Source of the DNA: Sulfurospirillum sp.
GTDB taxonomy: Bacteria; Campylobacterota; Campylobacteria; Campylobacterales; Sulfurospirillaceae
Length of the DNA: 64,000 nucleotides
Direction of reading: 5' to 3'
NCBI GenBank assembly: GCA_045047115.1
Contig: JASFYR010000009.1
Location: forward strand, 103,599 to 167,598
The notes under the pieces were generated by a model. It had not been told where the DNA came from and made no database searches. It saw only the letters and a list, made by a program, of their open reading frames with translations. This document shows positions 20,960-25,004 of this stretch, in pieces. The first letter of the stretch is position 1; the number at the start of each line of letters is the position of its first letter. Made by a program: the position numbers and the translations under genes.

Positions 20960-21068
20960 AAACTTTCCTTCGGTGTAATTTATAGGGGATTATATCATAA
21001 GGAAGTTTAGAAAAGCTGTAATTAAAATAAAATAGTATATCATAACAAAAAATTTAGGAGTAATTTAT

Positions 21069-21719
21069 ATGAATTTGATGGTATTTGGTGCACCTGGAGC
21101 AGGCAAAGGTACTCAGGCAAAATTTTTAGTAGAAAAGTACAATATCCCCCAAATCTCGACAGGAGATATGCTAAGAGCCGCTATAGCACAAAAGAGTGTT
21201 ATGGGAATGGAAGCTAAAAAATACATGGATAACGGTGAATTGGTTCCGGATTCCACAATCATAGGAATTATAAAAGAGAGATTGGAAAAAGATGATTGCC
21301 AAAATGGCTTTATTTTAGATGGTTTTCCAAGAACTTTAGCCCAAGCTCAAGCACTTGATGTATTGATGGAAGAGAGTGGCAAAGAGTTGGATTTTGTTCT
21401 TTCGTTTGATGTACCTGATGAATTGATTATAGAAAGAATCGCAGGTAGAAGAGTATGTCCAAAGTGTGGAGCCTCATATCATATAGAGTTTAATCCTCCA
21501 AAAACTAAGGGAACATGTGATGCCTGCGGAGCAGAGTTGATAACTAGAGAAGACGATAATGCAGATACTGTTAAAAACAGACTTGCAAACTATCACAAGC
21601 AAACCGCTCCTTTGATAGACTTTTATAAAAAAATGGGAGTTTTTGCTCAGATAGATGGTTCACAAGAACTCAGTAAAGTAACAGAGGATATGTTTAAAGT
21701 TTTGAAAAAAAAGTACTAA
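21069..21719 (+). CDS. adk: Second adenylate kinase, long zinc-binding lid type
   Basis: GAPGAGKGTQA, STGDMLR, LDGFPRT, lid CPKC...CDAC. Confidence 0.93.
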   Translation: MNLMVFGAPGAGKGTQAKFLVEKYNIPQISTGDMLRAAIAQKSVMGMEAKKYMDNGELVPDSTIIGIIKERLEKDDCQNGFILDGFPRTLAQAQALDVLMEESGKELDFVLSFDVPDELIIERIAGRRVCPKCGASYHIEFNPPKTKGTCDACGAELITREDDNADTVKNRLANYHKQTAPLIDFYKKMGVFAQIDGSQELSKVTEDMFKVLKKKY

Positions 21720-21725
21720 GTCTTA

Positions 21726-21761
21726 TATAGCCTTACAAATTATTAGTTTTGTGAGGCTATA
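21726..21761 (+). terminator. Hairpin terminator after the second adk
   Basis: TATAGCCTTACAAA / TTTGTGAGGCTATA, 14-bp stem with one G-U pair. Confidence 0.65.
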
Positions 21762-21781
21762 ACTCTGAGCATTTGGACAGT

Positions 21782-21814
21782 TGACACCTCTATGACACAG
21801 TTTGTAGATATTAT
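21782..21814 (+). promoter_or_regulatory. Putative native promoter of the REC-GGDEF-EAL operon: tandem TGACAC boxes plus -10
   Basis: TGACAC-N5-TGACAC-N10-TATTAT; same geometry at 27832-27864; followed by TAAGGAG at the IS junction. Confidence 0.6.
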
Positions 21815-21874
21815 GTTGTGTATGTAAGGAGTCAACTATAAAGAAACCTAACTAAAAAAGATTGATTTAAAGTT

Positions 21875-23071
21875 TCATTTAGAAACACTATAAGCTAAAT
21901 TTTCATCAAATTTAGTTTTGTTCTTTAAAAGTATAAATATTGTTTTTAAAAGTTTATTGGCAACGGCTATAACAGCTTGTTTGAATTTTTTACCTTCTTC
22001 TCTTTTTTTAGTGAAGTAAGCATTGAATTTTTCACAGGAACGGATCGTTCCAATTGCCATTTGCCAAATAGTACGACGAAGGTTGGCATTACCTCTTTTT
22101 GAGATTTTGCCTCTATAGTTAACTGAAGTACCACTCTGTCTAACAGATGGGTCAATTCCAATAAAAGCACAAAGTTGCTTTACAGATTTGAACTTATCAA
22201 CAGAGGATACTTCAACCATAAAGTTTTTAGAAGTTACTGCACCAATGCCAGGTATTGATTGTAAAAGTTCAATATCATCATTAATATCAGTATCTTCTAA
22301 AGAGTTTCGCAGCTCTTCATCAAGTATAGATAGTTCATTTTGAATGGTGATTAATCTTCTTATTTTAGAAGTTAATACCTTTTCAAGATACTTATCAGAT
22401 ACAGCAATAGAGTTCTTTGCAAGTGAGAGTATCTCATCTGCAGTGATTTTAACTTTATTGCCACTGGTACTATCTAGTAGTTTTTGAATTTTCTGCTTCT
22501 TCAAGTTCCTAACAGCCTTACGGCTAGGAGCTTGAAGAAGCAGATTTAAAATGCTTTTTGTAAATATGTTTGTGAACTTTGCCAATTCTGGAAACAGTTG
22601 AACTAAGTTAGCTTTTATTTCAGTTTTAAGTCTGGCTATCTCTTTAGAAAGTGATTCTCGCTCTCTAATAAGAGGTCTGATGCTTTCAATTGCATCAGGT
22701 GTAGCTAGATGCAATGACTGATATGATTTTAAACTAAATAGAGCAATTGAAGTAGCATCTTTTTTATCATTTTTAGTCTTTCTAAGAGTGGTTGAACCAA
22801 TAAAACTCTTTATGAGTATTGGATTTATAACCACACTTTTAAAACTATTTTCTAATAAAAAAGAGAGTAATGGTAAATGATATATACCAGTAGCTTCCAT
22901 TGACACTAAGAGCTTATCTTTGGAATAAGATGATAGATATTCTAATAGAGTATCAAATCCTTTTCTATCCATTGTAAGTTTCTCTTGTAGTTTAATTTCT
23001 CCACTACCCTCAAGTAGTGTAATATCAAAGCTATCTTGACTAATATCTATTCCACAGAATTGTTTATACAT
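21875..23071 (-). CDS. IS110-family DEDD recombinase/transposase
   Basis: RuvC-like GIDIS, MEATG, KTKNDKKDA; Tnp domain SIPGIG, GIDPSVRQSG (catalytic Ser), ISKRGN, AVANKL; ATG at 23071 after AAGG. Confidence 0.95.
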   Translation of the reverse strand: MYKQFCGIDISQDSFDITLLEGSGEIKLQEKLTMDRKGFDTLLEYLSSYSKDKLLVSMEATGIYHLPLLSFLLENSFKSVVINPILIKSFIGSTTLRKTKNDKKDATSIALFSLKSYQSLHLATPDAIESIRPLIRERESLSKEIARLKTEIKANLVQLFPELAKFTNIFTKSILNLLLQAPSRKAVRNLKKQKIQKLLDSTSGNKVKITADEILSLAKNSIAVSDKYLEKVLTSKIRRLITIQNELSILDEELRNSLEDTDINDDIELLQSIPGIGAVTSKNFMVEVSSVDKFKSVKQLCAFIGIDPSVRQSGTSVNYRGKISKRGNANLRRTIWQMAIGTIRSCEKFNAYFTKKREEGKKFKQAVIAVANKLLKTIFILLKNKTKFDENLAYSVSK

Positions 23072-23096
23072 CACAAACACCTTTACAAGTTATTTT

Positions 23097-23277
23097 TACA
23101 TGTAAACAGATAAGCAATCTTGCTTTTATCCTATCTCCATAATGACAGAGGCTCGAAGCCTAATCAACCTATTGGGATTACGAGCAAGTGATAGACTCCT
23201 TGGAGATTTAATAAAACTTCATTAAAAGTTCTATCATTGATCTAAAAAAAATGTGATCATCTTGCTTATCTCTTTAC
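23097..23277 (-). ncRNA. Candidate IS110 bridge RNA (~180 nt)
   Basis: Starts just after a minus-strand TATAAT (23283-23288); two internal-loop/apical-hairpin modules whose segments match the reconstructed target and donor; ends approximate. Confidence 0.7.
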
Positions 23278-23312
23278 ATGTAATTATACAAAATTTATTA
23301 GTAGGAGTTCAA

Positions 23313-25004
23313 ATGTCAATAGATATAAAAGATCTTGCAAAAAATAGTAAGAATTTGAAACTTCTTTATGTTGAAGATGATAAAAATGCTCGTGAAACCA
23401 CTCTAAAACTACTTGATAATTTCTTTAACAATATAACAATAGCTATTGATGGAAAAGATGGTATAGAAAAATTCAAAAACAAAAAGTATGATTTGATTTT
23501 GAGTGATATTAATATGCCAAATATCAATGGTTTGGAAATGTTAAAAAATATTAGAAAATTGGATACAGAGGTATCTGTTTTGCTGCTTTCGGCACATAAT
23601 GACAGCGATTATTTTTTAGAAGCAATTGAACTGGATGTAGATGGCTATATTTTAAAGCCCTTGGTTTTCAAGCAATTTATAAAAGTTCTATTTAAAATAG
23701 TTCAAAAAATTAATCTTTTAGCTTTGAACGAAAACTATCAAAAACATCTCGAAAGTGAGGTAAAAAAAAGAAGTGCAGAATTAGAACACAAGTTGTATTT
23801 TGATTCTCTTACAGATCTTTTGAGTCGATATTCATTTTTTAAAGATATCGAAAAATTGGATTTACCAGTGATTCTTTTGCTTAATATTGATAAATTCAAA
23901 GTGATAAATGAGGTTTACGGCATAGATGTCGGTTCAAAAGTTTTACAAAAGTTTGCAGATTTTTTAAAGTTGATTATTAAAGATAATTCGTGTAAGTTAT
24001 ATCGCTTATCTGCAGATGAATTTGCAATTGTAGATACAACAAGACATATTGATACAGAAAAATACGAAGAGTTGATAAGAGATATCTTCAAAAAACTTCA
24101 CTATTTTAAAATGTCAATAGATAAAAATATTATTTCCATAGATATAACCATAGGTCTTTCAACGGTTGAAAAAAATGGCTATGAAAGTGCAAAAATAGCA
24201 TTGGACTATGCTAAAAAACATAAAAAATCTTTTATGATGTACTCCAGTGCTATAGATTATCGTAAAGAAAACAGTGCAGCTTTAAAATATAGAGATAAAA
24301 TTTCTCTTGCTATTGATGAAAACAGGATAGTTGCAGTATATCAGCCTATAGTTGATAAAAATATGCTGATTGTAAAATATGAAACATTGATGAGATTGAA
24401 AGAAGAAAATTCTCAAAAGTTGATTTCCCCTTTCTATTTTTTGGATGTGGCTATAAAAACAAGGCTTTATAGTCAATTGTCACATATAATCATCTTTAAA
24501 GCATTGGAAATGGTGAATTCAACCAATAAACAATTAAGTATAAATTTTACATATAGTGATATTAAAAATGCTAATCTTATAGAAGATATAGAAAGTTTTT
24601 TATATTTGCATAGTGAGGTTGGAAATAAGAGTGTTTTTGAAATTACTGAGAGTGAAAATATTGAAAATTACGATGTGGTAAAAAATTTTATAACACGCTT
24701 TAAAAAATATGGAGTAAAGATAGCAATTGATGATTTTGGAAGCGGTTTTTCAAATTTTAATTATATACTGGAAATTGAGCCTGATTATCTCAAGATAGAC
24801 GGAACGCTGATAAAAAATATAGATACCGATGCAAATTCTCATGCATTGGTTGAAGCCATAGTGAAATTTTCTCATAAATTGGGTATAAAAGTTATAGCTG
24901 AGTATGTGCACTCTAAAAAAGTATTTGATATACTAAAGGAGTTAGATGTAGATGAGTATCAGGGTTACTATTTTTATGAACCTTTGCAAGAGATACAGGA
25001 GTGA
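23313..25004 (+). CDS. Response regulator receiver + degenerate GGDEF + EAL domain protein (probable c-di-GMP phosphodiesterase)
   Basis: YVEDD, SDINMP, KPL; SADEF in place of GGDEF; YETLMR, FEITE, DDFGSG, KIDG, AEYV, QGY. Confidence 0.9.
   Translation: MSIDIKDLAKNSKNLKLLYVEDDKNARETTLKLLDNFFNNITIAIDGKDGIEKFKNKKYDLILSDINMPNINGLEMLKNIRKLDTEVSVLLLSAHNDSDYFLEAIELDVDGYILKPLVFKQFIKVLFKIVQKINLLALNENYQKHLESEVKKRSAELEHKLYFDSLTDLLSRYSFFKDIEKLDLPVILLLNIDKFKVINEVYGIDVGSKVLQKFADFLKLIIKDNSCKLYRLSADEFAIVDTTRHIDTEKYEELIRDIFKKLHYFKMSIDKNIISIDITIGLSTVEKNGYESAKIALDYAKKHKKSFMMYSSAIDYRKENSAALKYRDKISLAIDENRIVAVYQPIVDKNMLIVKYETLMRLKEENSQKLISPFYFLDVAIKTRLYSQLSHIIIFKALEMVNSTNKQLSINFTYSDIKNANLIEDIESFLYLHSEVGNKSVFEITESENIENYDVVKNFITRFKKYGVKIAIDDFGSGFSNFNYILEIEPDYLKIDGTLIKNIDTDANSHALVEAIVKFSHKLGIKVIAEYVHSKKVFDILKELDVDEYQGYYFYEPLQEIQE

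What the first reader, a model, noticed from the sequence alone, without database searches (positions are those of the whole stretch)
21827..23308. IS110 bridge recombinase whose RNA appears programmed to target Shine-Dalgarno sequences
Seen: AGGAGT flanks both ends. Removing the element gives ...TATGT-AAGGAG-TTCAA-ATG (ATG 23313), a normal RBS and start codon. In element (minus) orientation the empty target is TTTGAA-CT-CCTTAC and the circle donor is TAGTTGA-CT-CCTACT. The left-end RNA has two modules of the form guide, apical hairpin, guide. Module 1 is GAUAGAACU (23227-23235), hairpin UUUAAU/AUUAAA, then AAGGAG (23196-23201); together they spell AAGGAGTTC, a contiguous 9-nt match to the empty site. 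Module 2 is AGGUUGAUU (23162-23170; 8 contiguous pairs to the donor, two of them wobble), hairpin AGGCU-UCG-AGCCU, then GGAG (23135-23138; 4 pairs). Established: IS621-type IS110 bridge RNAs use target- and donor-binding loops with left guides ending in the core and right guides ending in its complement. Inference: this element's guides encode the SD consensus, so it would insert at translation-initiation sites instead of REP repeats or ORFs. I do not know of this targeting being described, but I could not search the literature.
Basis: partly seen in the sequence, partly recalled or inferred. Interest (0 to 1): 0.92.

Follow-up and report, generated by a model that had tools for sequence, protein, structure and literature searches.

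The report
IS110 element aimed at ribosome-binding sites
This is an RNA-guided jumping gene of the IS110 family that sits between a gene's ribosome-binding site and its start codon, as do its relatives' copies; its guide RNA spells that site, but the habit is already known from mycobacterial IS900.

Summary
The element is real: a 1,476-bp IS110-family insertion on the minus strand, between the AAGGAG Shine-Dalgarno (SD) sequence and the ATG of a REC-GGDEF-EAL gene. It is a single copy in this genome.

SD targeting holds across relatives. All 22 distinct left-end junctions read CAT-N(2 or 5-9)-CT with an open frame behind the ATG. All 16 right-end junctions read CTCCT-T.

The left end encodes a bridge RNA with two internal loops, supported by covariation.
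- Supported by two relatives with other right target guides (AAGAAAG, AUACGAG), which sit at matching sites.
It is one arm of an apical hairpin whose sequence varies freely while the target stays the same. The "9-nt match" is 6 real bases plus 3 by chance.
- The true 5' loop strand is CACAUUUUUUUU. It fits SD-to-ATG spacers only loosely and does not explain the restriction to gene starts.

The novelty claim fails. IS900 and IS901 are reported to insert between SD and start codon (motif CATGN6TCTCCTT). I found no paper giving the RNA logic. This scan has noted SD-targeting IS110 elements before on other DNA.

The parts
21827..23308 (-). IS110-family element, including both copies of the shared AGGAG(T)/CTCCT repeat. 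One unit is 1,476 bp (21830/21832 to 23305/23307).
   Evidence: The flanks are contiguous in IS-free orthologues.
23306..23307 (-). Core dinucleotide CT at the left-end junction, within the shared CTCCT at 23303-23307.
   Evidence: Relative L049 shares only ACT between its two junctions, and L032 shares only CTT. The intersection is CT, which is the first CT of CTCCT.
21830..21831 (-). Core dinucleotide CT at the right-end junction, within the shared CTCCT at 21827-21831. The host SD AAGGAG is 21826-21831.
21830..21835 (-). TTGACT in the right end. It would be the -35 box of a promoter formed only in the circular RE-LE junction (TTGACT-N17-TATAAT).
   Evidence: Seen directly in the sequence. 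TTGACT is invariant in all relatives' right ends. The junction-promoter principle is described for IS621 (PMC11208158, passage).
23283..23288 (-). TATAAT -10 box in the left end. In relatives it is TATAAT, TACAAT or TAAAAT at the same spacing.
23098..23281 (-). Bridge RNA, about 184 nt, from the predicted start just after the -10 box to the end of the long 5'-3' closing helix.
   Evidence: Fold energy -60.7 kcal/mol, z -5.19. On 15 relatives, 96.4% of cells are paired and 21 pairs show changes on both sides, reached by 0 of 500 shuffles. The RNA ends are inferred, not mapped.
23244..23255 (-). 5' strand of the target-binding loop, CACAUUUUUUUU. This is the position of the left target guide.
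   Evidence: It lies between the covarying closing stem and the inner stem. In the retargeted relative L049 the same strand, UUGUGUUACU, matches its left target TTGTTTTACT at 9 of 10 positions. Its guide role here is only loosely supported.
23204..23243 (-). Inner stem AGAU/AUCU (23240-23243 with 23204-23207) and a variable apical hairpin (23209-23236).
   Evidence: The inner stem covaries as AGGU/ACCU in 3 sequences. In the hairpin, 7 of 9 pairs change on both sides. L049 lacks the hairpin altogether.
23196..23201 (-). Right target guide AAGGAG. It pairs with CTCCTT on the top strand of the target, which is the antisense strand of the host SD.
   Evidence: Nearly invariant in the 13 SD-type RNAs of alignment A2. 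All 16 right-end flanks give CTCCT+T. Relatives with AAGAAAG and AUACGAG sit at CT-TTCTT and CT-TGTAT.
23194..23195 (-). UC, at the position of the handshake guide of the target loop. It is complementary to donor positions 7 and 6 (A and G of GTTGA-CT).
   Evidence: Seen directly in the sequence. UC is kept in nearly all of the 15 aligned relatives. The geometry is taken from IS621 (PMC11208158, passages).
23184..23265 (-). Closing stem of the target-binding loop: GCAAG-a-UGAU (23256-23265) with AUCA-CUUGC (23184-23192).
   Evidence: 9 pairs, 6 of them with changes on both sides, 97% paired (helix 2). An alternative pairing of CUUGCU with the 3' AGCAAG also fits.
23128..23178 (-). Donor-binding loop. 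It comprises the closing stem AUCC/GGAU, the left donor guide (A)GGUUGAUU at 23162-23170, the hairpin AGGCU-UCG-AGCCU at 23149-23161, the right donor guide GGAG at 23135-23138, and AU at 23133-23134 in the handshake position.
   Evidence: All 3 counted hairpin pairs and 2 of 4 closing-stem pairs change on both sides. GUUGAUU and GGAGA are invariant or nearly so (one relative reads GUUGGUU), as are the donor ends GTTGACT and CTCCTACT.
21875..23071 (-). Recombinase gene, 398 aa from the ATG at 23071. The ORF is open from the GTG at 23080.
   Evidence: It matches solved structures ISCro4 9t56 (E 1.5e-29) and IS621 8wt6 (E 7.2e-29). GIDxS, MEAT, D-x-x-DA and SGxS are aligned in the printed ISCro4 alignment.
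23313..25004 (+). Host gene behind the insertion, with REC, GGDEF and EAL domains. Its SD is rebuilt as TAGGAG by the element's left terminus, with the same 5-nt spacer.

Best explanation
The feature is an intact IS110-group insertion sequence, that is, a bridge-RNA-guided DEDD/serine recombinase.

Proposed cycle (inferred from IS621):
1. The element excises as a circle.
2. The joined RE-LE junction forms a promoter, TTGACT-N17-TATAAT.
3. That promoter drives a bridge RNA of about 184 nt from the left end.

The RNA has two internal loops.
- Donor loop: (A)GGUUGAUU and GGAG pair with the element's own junction, TAGTTGA-CT-CCTACT.
- Target loop, 3' strand: AAGGAG pairs with CTCCTT. This is the strand antisense to a host Shine-Dalgarno sequence, which fixes both the site and the antisense orientation.
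- The UC that follows AAGGAG is placed to pair with donor positions 7 and 6 after strand exchange.

Recombination at the CT core puts the element between SD and start codon. Target and donor both read CTCCT, so the left terminus rebuilds an SD (TAGGAG) at the original spacing in front of the host ATG.

The 5' strand of the target loop (CACAUUUUUUUU) is U-rich and fits the T-rich spacer plus CAT only loosely. The near-absolute restriction to real gene starts is therefore probably a joint result of three things: the AAGGAG guide, this loose left guide or a preference for AT-rich flanks, and loss of gene-breaking insertions.

Shown here: family membership, site pattern, RNA structure, and guide-DNA complementarity.
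Inferred: circle formation, transcription, catalysis, and continued expression of the host gene.
For: Family:
- Pfam and NCBIfam models are passed.
- The protein is homologous to the solved bridge recombinases IS621 and ISCro4.

Site pattern:
- All 22 distinct left-end junctions from at least 10 genomes and MAGs have CAT 5-9 nt 5' of the CT core. In L005 the nearest CAT is at 2 nt and the one used is at 9 nt.
- Each ATG opens a frame. 19 of the 22 frames are at least 57 codons, and one further frame (22 codons) is cut short by a contig end.
- All 16 right-end flanks follow CTCCT with T.
- Metagenome contigs added 3 more left flanks, with an ATG 5-7 nt after AGGAG in two and an unclear junction in the third. 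They also added 3 right flanks ending A(A)AGGAG.
- Background in this genome: of 1,153 AAGGAG sites, 256 (22%) are SD-like, 775 are intragenic and 122 are other.
- IS-free orthologous loci exist.

RNA:
- The two-loop structure is 96.4% paired, with 21 pairs changed on both sides, reached by 0 of 500 shuffles. Slid controls give 35-43% paired.

Guides:
- L049 has guide AAGAAAG and junction CT-TTCTT. L032 has guide AUACGAG and junction CT-TGTAT, with one G-T wobble. Both keep the donor loop and donor ends.
- The geometry matches IS621. The right guide ends in AG, opposite the core, and is followed by a 2-nt handshake guide. The left guides read the same as the top strand (passages).

Activity:
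- Near-identical ends lie at many contig breaks in congeners: 6 places in G009, 4 in G004 and 4 in G006.
Against: - The left target guide is weak. Over 8 non-core positions the match averages 4.06 for 17 sites, against 3.73 for random SD sites (P 0.24).
- 7 of those 17 insertions score 3 or less. At that score only about 9% of AAGGAG sites are SD sites. Guide pairing in a fixed register therefore does not explain the SD restriction.
- The CAT-to-core spacing of insertions is 8, 7, 4, 2 and 1 sites at 5, 6, 7, 8 and 9 nt (my count). This mirrors natural SD-ATG spacing of 36, 22, 18, 16 and 7%.
- Target and donor are invariant within the SD-type group, so RNA-DNA covariation rests on only two retargeted relatives, each with a single copy.
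- Two global topologies fit the four GCAAG/CUUGC segments about equally well.
- No circle junction or empty-site contig was seen in the 4 runs laid.
- Only one copy is present in this genome.
- No Rfam family matches.
Confidence: 0.85

Rival explanations
1. The target loop is a two-part reader of the translation-initiation region. AAGGAG reads the SD. The 5' strand, with its conserved CAU followed by a slippery U tract, reads the start codon and the A-rich spacer on the other DNA strand. Under this reading the RNA itself distinguishes true gene starts from other AAGGAG sites.
For: - CAU sits at a fixed distance from the inner stem in all 13 SD-type RNAs. It is absent from the non-SD relative L049.
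- In L049 the same strand matches its left target at 9 of 10 positions.
- Insertion sites match the strand better than random AAGGAG sites do: 4.06 against 2.64, P 0.0002.
- Among AAGGAG sites scoring 6 or more, 37 of 51 are SD sites.
- For the window's own site, ACAUUU equals ACATTT, with the CAT in register.
- RTG plus removal of every intragenic insertion would still leave only 256 of 378 sites (68%) SD-like.
Against: - Insertion sites match no better than random SD sites (P 0.24).
- 7 of 17 sites score 3 or less.
- Spacing follows the natural SD-ATG distribution and shows no preferred register.
- L053 has a U tract one base shorter but sits at a 6-nt spacer.
- CAU could equally be a structural linker.
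Confidence: 0.3
2. The RNA selects only CTCCTT. The restriction to SD-ATG intervals is survivorship. Insertions into the roughly two thirds of AAGGAG sites that lie inside genes are lost. Insertions between SD and ATG rebuild the SD and are nearly neutral.
For: - 775 of 1,153 AAGGAG sites are intragenic.
- The left terminus restores AGGAG at the same spacing.
- The left-guide match is not above that of random SD sites.
Against: - Even with every intragenic insertion removed, 122 non-SD sites remain beside 256 SD-like ones. At 68% expected, 22 of 22 has a probability of about 2e-4 (my arithmetic). My SD class is crude, so this figure is rough.
- An insertion of about 1.5 kb between promoter and gene is not obviously neutral.
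Confidence: 0.3
3. Module 1 uses GAUAGAACU as left target guide and UUUAAU/AUUAAA as apical hairpin, so the two guides spell AAGGAGTTC.
For: GAACU equals GAACT in this one target.
Against: - The segment is the 5' arm of a hairpin with 7 of 9 pairs changed on both sides.
- Relatives with the same CTCCTT target carry UUCUAAAG, UCUCAAAC, GUCCUUC or GCCC in its place. L049 lacks the hairpin altogether.
- The bases 5' of the core vary among the 22 sites.
Confidence: 0.03
4. The target is chosen by the protein, or by local DNA structure at translation starts, and not by the RNA. This was the view before 2024.
For: The guide match alone does not explain the SD restriction.
Against: - Two relatives with altered right guides sit at correspondingly altered sites, while their donor ends stay the same.
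- The protein is a homologue of IS621 and ISCro4.
- The RNA has the covarying two-loop architecture.
Confidence: 0.04

Closest known systems
IS900 and IS901 of Mycobacterium avium (IS110 family)
   Same: - Both insert in one orientation between the Shine-Dalgarno sequence and the start codon.
- The published IS900 motif, CATGNNNNNNTCTCCTT (PMC8141618, passages), is the same pattern as CAT-N5-9-CTCCTT found here.
- The habit is cited in PMC2942039 (passage) to Doran 1997 and Inglis 2003. I saw those two only as references and titles.
   Different: - The host is in the Campylobacterota (Arcobacteraceae-type MAG titles), not the Actinobacteria.
- There is no long antisense 'hed'-like ORF. The longest frame antisense to the recombinase inside the element is 51 aa.
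- I could not fetch IS900 DNA, so neither its relatedness nor its RNA was tested.
- No paper in the library links IS900 to a bridge RNA (0 papers in each).
IS621 and ISCro4 bridge recombinases with their bridge RNA (Durrant 2024, PMC11208160; Hiraizumi 2024, PMC11208158; passages read)
   Same: - Same protein family (E about 1e-29 to both).
- The ncRNA is encoded in the left end, behind a junction promoter.
- Both have two internal loops, each ordered stem, left guide, stem-loop, right guide, 2-nt handshake position, stem.
- Both use a CT core.
- The right guide ends in AG.
- The left donor guide is about 8 nt.
   Different: - The target is the SD, not a REP element.
- The right target guide is 6-7 nt here, against 4 in IS621.
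- The left target guide is a degenerate U tract and not a specific 9-mer.
- Target and donor share 5 nt (CTCCT), not just the 2-nt core.
- A long helix pairs the RNA's 5' and 3' ends.
- The target-loop stem-loop carries an extra variable hairpin.
- There is no linker between the left guide and the inner stem, judging from L049.
Other site-specific IS110/IS1111 elements, such as the REP-targeting ISPpu10 and ISPa11 named in PMC11208160 and in the listing
   Same: Both use an abundant short host motif as a landing site, read by the RNA.
   Different: The motif here is a functional translation signal, and the element rebuilds it.

Membership tests
IS110 family (IS110 group, bridge-RNA-guided) | Recombinase with an N-terminal DEDD RuvC-like domain and a C-terminal Tnp domain | tested here: met
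   PF01548 (E 1.5e-32) and PF02371 (E 1.4e-24). NF033542 scores 222 bits against a cut-off of 140. GIDxS, MEAT, D-x-x-DA and SGxS are aligned to ISCro4.
IS110 family (IS110 group, bridge-RNA-guided) | A long non-coding left end upstream of the ORF that encodes the RNA, and a short right end. The IS1111 group has the reverse arrangement. | tested here: met
   The left end is about 230 nt (23072-23305) and the right end about 45 nt (21830-21874).
IS110 family (IS110 group, bridge-RNA-guided) | A short core, typically CT, repeated at both junctions. No long target duplication. | tested here: met
   CTCCT is shared here. Relatives narrow the core to CT: L049 shares ACT and L032 shares CTT.
IS110 family (IS110 group, bridge-RNA-guided) | ncRNA with two internal loops, each flanking a stem-loop | tested here: met
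   Alignment A2 of 15 sequences: 96.4% paired, 21 pairs with changes on both sides, reached by 0 of 500 shuffles.
IS110 family (IS110 group, bridge-RNA-guided) | Right target guide complementary to core plus right target | tested here: met
   AAGGAG pairs with CTCCTT at all 16 right-end junctions. It covaries in L049 and L032.
IS110 family (IS110 group, bridge-RNA-guided) | Left target guide matching left target plus core | tested here: inconclusive
   Met in L049, at 9 of 10 positions. In the SD-type elements the match is no better than for random SD sites (P 0.24).
IS110 family (IS110 group, bridge-RNA-guided) | Donor guides matching the RE-LE junction | tested here: met
   GGUUGAUU pairs with AGTTGACT over 8 contiguous positions, 2 of them wobble. 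GGAG pairs with CTCC. Both sides are invariant or nearly so, so there is no covariation to test.
IS110 family (IS110 group, bridge-RNA-guided) | Handshake guides complementary to the non-cognate DNA at positions 7 and 6 | tested here: inconclusive
   The target-loop UC fits donor positions A7 and G6 in the relatives checked. The donor-loop AU has no constant partner: target position 7 is A in 8 sites, T in 8, C in 5 and G in 1 of 22.
IS110 family (IS110 group, bridge-RNA-guided) | Promoter reconstituted at the circle junction, and existence of a circular intermediate | tested here: inconclusive
   The sequence TTGACT-N17-TATAAT would form on joining and is conserved. No junction contig was seen in the 4 runs laid.
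IS900-type SD-targeting IS110 elements | Orientation-specific insertion between SD and start codon, with consensus CATG-N-CNCCTT | tested here: met
   22 of 22 left junctions and 16 of 16 right junctions fit. The published motif was read.
IS900-type SD-targeting IS110 elements | Sequence relatedness to IS900 itself, and an antisense hed ORF | not testable with these tools
No long antisense ORF is present here.
Rfam RNA families | A match to any curated covariance model | tested here: not met
   The only hit is a chance match to MIR825 at E 0.59.

The most novel reading that the evidence does not exclude
The target loop would be a two-part sensor of the translation-initiation region. The right guide is a copy of the SD. 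A slip-tolerant CAU-plus-U-tract left guide reads the start codon and spacer at variable distance. Together with rebuilding of the SD, this would let the element use a near-universal bacterial signal as a near-neutral landing pad. That could explain why SD-targeting IS110 elements turn up in Campylobacterota, in Bacillota (the Coprobacillaceae element) and in Actinobacteria (IS900).
Probability: 0.3. Interest if true: 0.6.

Novelty: new member of a known kind. Interest (0 to 1): 0.4.

Why it matters
- It gives a readable RNA-level account of a 25-year-old observation, namely that IS900-type elements land between ribosome-binding site and start codon. The right target guide is simply a copy of the SD.
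- It shows that a natural bridge RNA can combine one specific guide with one degenerate guide.
- An insertion that rebuilds the SD may leave the host gene translatable. That makes SD sites an abundant safe harbour.
- For users of bridge recombinases, this is a natural example of targeting that rests mainly on a 6-7 nt right guide plus the core.
- None of this is a new kind of system.

Tried and rejected
- **Rfam** scan of 21000-24000 gave nothing relevant.
- **A pseudoknot UCUAUC/GAUAGG** fits (96.7% paired, 2 pairs changed on both sides), but it overlaps the better-supported closing stems of both loops. I left it open.
- **RDG AUUA pairing with TAAT** was rejected. These RNA bases vary (UUA, CAG, UGA, CGA, AAU) while the donor stays constant.
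- **A fixed-register left guide as the cause of the SD restriction** was rejected.
- **A spacer preference** was not found. The 'observed' line used 9 sites at spacer 5 (n=23). The correct count is 8 (n=22).
- **Supplement 4 of PMC11208160**, searched for AAGGAG and CTCCTT, returned only hits inside RNA alignments and was uninformative. The other supplements were not opened, so I cannot say whether SD-type targets are listed there.
- **Reads laid on the element** showed no circle or empty-site joint. RNA-library contigs of X19 cover 23150-23298 and 21829-22480 only, which the tool says does not show transcription.
- **tblastn against plasmids** found only relatives of 35% identity or less, with generic names.
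- **The scan's index** holds no look-alike of this protein and no notes on this genome.
- **One paper search failed** on term length and was rephrased.
Full report
**What is there**

Window 21827-23308 holds, on the minus strand, a 401-aa ORF (23080..21875; the likely start is the ATG at 23071). It carries DEDD_Tnp_IS110 and Transposase_20. It passes NCBIfam NF033542, 'IS110 family RNA-guided transposase'. It matches the solved bridge recombinases ISCro4 (9t56, E 1.5e-29) and IS621 (8wt6, E 7.2e-29), and the GIDxS, MEAT, D-x-x-DA and SGxS motifs are aligned in the printed ISCro4 alignment.

AGGAGT flanks both ends. The upstream neighbour is adenylate kinase. The downstream gene encodes a REC-GGDEF-EAL protein starting at 23313. 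The element is a single copy in its 2.14-Mb, 41-contig genome.

**The empty site**

Removing the element gives GTATGTAAGGAG-TTCAA-ATG. Orthologues of the downstream gene in two congeners lack the element.
- G005 (83% identity) reads GTATAGAAGGAG-CCAGA-ATGTCAATTGAT behind the same TTGACAC... upstream region.
- G002 reads AAAAGGA-TTTTAG-ATG.

The spacer letters differ between species.

**Other copies**

A search of 61 genomes of the family found near-identical ends at contig breaks in congeners: 6 places in G009, 4 in G004 and 4 in G006. It also found full copies in two other genera. A class-wide sample of 401 genomes added copies at 57-58% protein identity in two complete genomes. A scan of genome contigs added MAG copies at 84-92% identity, titled Arcobacteraceae, Campylobacterales and Sulfurospirillum among others.

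Left junctions, after collapsing identical flanks:
- There are 22 distinct junctions with the CTCCTACTAAT-type left end.
- All 22 have CAT shortly 5' of the CT core.
- Spacers of 5, 6, 7, 8 and 9 nt occur in 8, 7, 4, 2 and 1 sites.
- In L005 the nearest CAT is 2 nt away and the one counted is at 9 nt.

The ATGs are real starts in most cases:
- Every one of the 22 ATGs opens a frame.
- 19 frames are at least 57 codons, and one further frame (22 codons) is cut short by a contig end.
- Two are short, at 34 and 36 codons.
- Many look like signal peptides.

Right junctions and ends:
- All 16 right-end junctions with a flank read ...ATAGTTGACTCCT followed by T.
- The base 5' of CTCCT at the left junction varies, so the recurrent shared repeat is CTCCT.
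- Two left ends of a different type in G006 (L024, L027) were kept out of the count. One of them has no nearby CAT.

Metagenome contigs laid on the element gave three more left flanks and three right flanks ending A(A)AGGAG. Two of the left flanks have an ATG 5-7 nt after AGGAG. In the third (X1) the junction is less clear.

**Is that more than chance?**

In this genome, 1,156 AAGGAG sites exist and 26% have an ATG 4-10 nt downstream. By a crude classification of 1,153 sites, 256 (22%) are SD-like, 775 lie inside long ORFs and 122 are neither. Twenty-two of 22 is far above any of these rates.

**The RNA**

The left end folds well: -60.7 kcal/mol, z -5.19. I aligned 15 distinct left-end RNAs at 72-100% identity and counted pairs for three candidate structures.

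The IS621-like two-loop structure gave:
- 96.4% of cells paired.
- 21 pairs with changes on both sides, and a covariation score of 0.275.
- None of 500 shuffles reaching these values.
- Slid controls pairing only 35-43% of cells.

Per helix, the numbers of pairs changed on both sides are:

| Helix | Pairs changed on both sides |
|---|---|
| Closing stem of the first loop (GCAAG-a-UGAU with AUCA-CUUGC) | 6 of 9 |
| Apical hairpin | 7 of 9 |
| Inner stem AGAU/AUCU (AGGU/ACCU in three sequences) | 1 of 4 |
| Donor-loop closing stem AUCC/GGAU | 2 of 4 |
| Donor hairpin | 3 of 3 |

A long helix also pairs the RNA's 5' and 3' ends. An alternative partner for the middle CUUGCU fits about as well, because four GCAAG/CUUGC segments change together. 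A possible pseudoknot is not excluded.

**Reading the loops**

I used the published geometry. The left guide reads like the top strand and ends in the core. The right guide is complementary to core plus right flank and ends in AG. Two handshake bases follow, complementary to positions 7 and 6 of the other DNA (PMC11208160 and PMC11208158, passages).

- **Donor loop.** (A)GGUUGAUU pairs with AGTTGACT (8 contiguous pairs, two of them wobble), followed by the hairpin and then GGAG against CTCC.
- **Target loop, 3' strand.** It reads CC-AAGGAG-UC. AAGGAG pairs with CTCCTT, and UC fits donor A7 and G6.
- **Target loop, 5' strand.** That segment is the 5' arm of the apical hairpin. Relatives with the same target have UUCUAAAG, UCUCAAAC, GUCCUUC or GCCC there, and L049 has no such hairpin. 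The real 5' strand is CACAUUUUUUUU (23244-23255).

**Natural retargeting**

Two relatives keep the donor loop and the donor ends but differ in the target loop.
- L049 has AAGAAAG. Its right junction reads GA-CT-TTCTT, and its 5' strand UUGUGUUACU matches the left flank TTGTTTTACT at 9 of 10 positions.
- L032 has AUACGAG. Its right junction reads CT-TGTAT, a 7-base pairing with one G-T wobble.
- The repeats shared between their two junctions are ACT and CTT. This fixes the core as CT, the first CT of CTCCT.

They support the right guide and the core.

**What the left strand does**

CAU lies at a fixed distance from the inner stem in all 13 SD-type RNAs and is missing in L049.

Matches over the 8 non-core positions of the left guide:

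| Set | Mean matches | Comparison |
|---|---|---|
| 17 insertion sites | 4.06 | - |
| Random SD sites | 3.73 | P 0.24 |
| Random AAGGAG sites | 2.64 | P 0.0002 |

- Seven of the 17 insertion sites score 3 or less. At that score only about 9% of AAGGAG sites are SD sites.
- Insertion spacers follow the natural SD-ATG spacing.

So the strand looks tuned to the generic T-rich spacer plus CAT. Pairing in one register, however, cannot account for the restriction to gene starts.

Removing all intragenic sites would still leave 68% SD-like. I therefore think selection alone is not enough either. I rate the two partial explanations about equally.

**Consequences**

Target and donor share CTCCT. The gene side therefore reads ...TTAGTAGGAG-TTCAA-ATG after insertion, which is an SD at the old spacing. 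Whether the gene is still transcribed is not known. A promoter-like site faces it at 23208-23237, but such sites are no more frequent here than in shuffles.

Joining RE to LE would create TTGACT-N17-TATAAT. Both boxes and the spacing are kept in the relatives, as described for IS621.

**Literature**

[quoted passage not shown] 1997; Inglis et al. 2003)'.
- The Doran title, seen in reference lists, is 'IS900 targets translation initiation signals...'.
- Conde 2021 (PMC8141618, passages) reports the IS900 motif CATGNNNNNNTCTCCTT.
- The targeting is therefore in print.
- Searches for IS900 + 'bridge RNA' and IS110 + IS900 + 'RNA-guided' found 0 papers each.
- 'bridge RNA' + IS110 + Shine-Dalgarno found one paper, and 'bridge RNA' + 'ribosome binding site' + 'start codon' + IS110 found two. 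For the first, the passages I read use the SD term for a riboswitch; of the second, the one paper listed is on a Cas12f-related system by its title and abstract.
- Within that library, then, the RNA explanation is not described.
- Durrant 2024 does not mention IS900, ribosome or start codon in its main text. Its supplements were only partly searched.

**Earlier notes of this scan**

One search lists several SD-targeting IS110 elements on other DNA, with the same reading, including the IS900 precedent. None is a look-alike of this element.

**Verdict**

This is a sound observation with a partly wrong anatomy. It is a new Campylobacterota member of the known SD-targeting IS110 elements, and its bridge RNA can be read. 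It is of moderate interest.

Noticed in passing
L058-L064 (OY776328.1, Coprobacillaceae MAG chromosome) and L057: A distant IS110 element (27-28% protein identity, 7 copies) also sits at gene starts. Its left flanks read CAT-N6-9 before (T)CCTGG, and its right end reads ...ATAGTTAGCTCCT. By eye, its RNA has UUUUAUUCCU and CUCGAG-GA around a GUAG/CUAC hairpin, so the core would lie inside the SD (CGAGGAAT) in a different register.
   Followed up: partly
L049 (JAITNC010000031.1) and L032/L010 (G046:C50): These are relatives with the same donor ends but other target-loop guides (AAGAAAG; AUACGAG). They are inserted at matching non-SD sites, so they are natural examples of retargeting. L032's ORF carries a TAA stop.
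   Followed up: partly
L014 (G014:C82): Only about 30 nt of a left end (CTCCTGCTATTAAATTTTGTATGATTACATG) lies at a CAT-N6-CT site, followed by unrelated sequence. It looks like a solo left-end remnant.
   Followed up: no
L053 and L050 (CAZUPK01 contigs): The donor-loop hairpin carries an insertion of about 35 nt, which gives a longer hairpin. The guides are otherwise unchanged.
   Followed up: no
window 23244-23251: One contig of an RNA library (X19) lacks 2 of the 8 U's of the left loop strand, and L053 has 7 U's. The tract length is therefore polymorphic.
   Followed up: no
window 23208-23237 (+): A promoter-like site, TTAATA-N18-TATCAT, lies inside the left end and faces the REC-GGDEF-EAL gene. 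The count of such sites in the region equals that in shuffles.
   Followed up: no
L084 (NZ_OY725734.1, Monoglobus pectinilyticus 'plasmid 10'): A 1,563-bp circular record consists only of an IS110 transposase gene (33% identity) and its non-coding ends. It may be a circular IS form assembled as a plasmid.
   Followed up: partly
L044, L051, L052 (titles): Copies at 50-91% identity lie on contigs binned as Thiotrichales, Gracilibacteria and Delongbacteria MAGs. This points either to horizontal spread or to mis-binning of short contigs.
   Followed up: no
window 21780-21826 and L073/L074: The stretch TTGACAC...ATGACAC..GTTTGTAGATATTAT upstream of the SD is conserved in the IS-free orthologues. 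It is likely the promoter or operator of the REC-GGDEF-EAL gene, and the insertion now separates it from the gene by about 1.5 kb.
   Followed up: no
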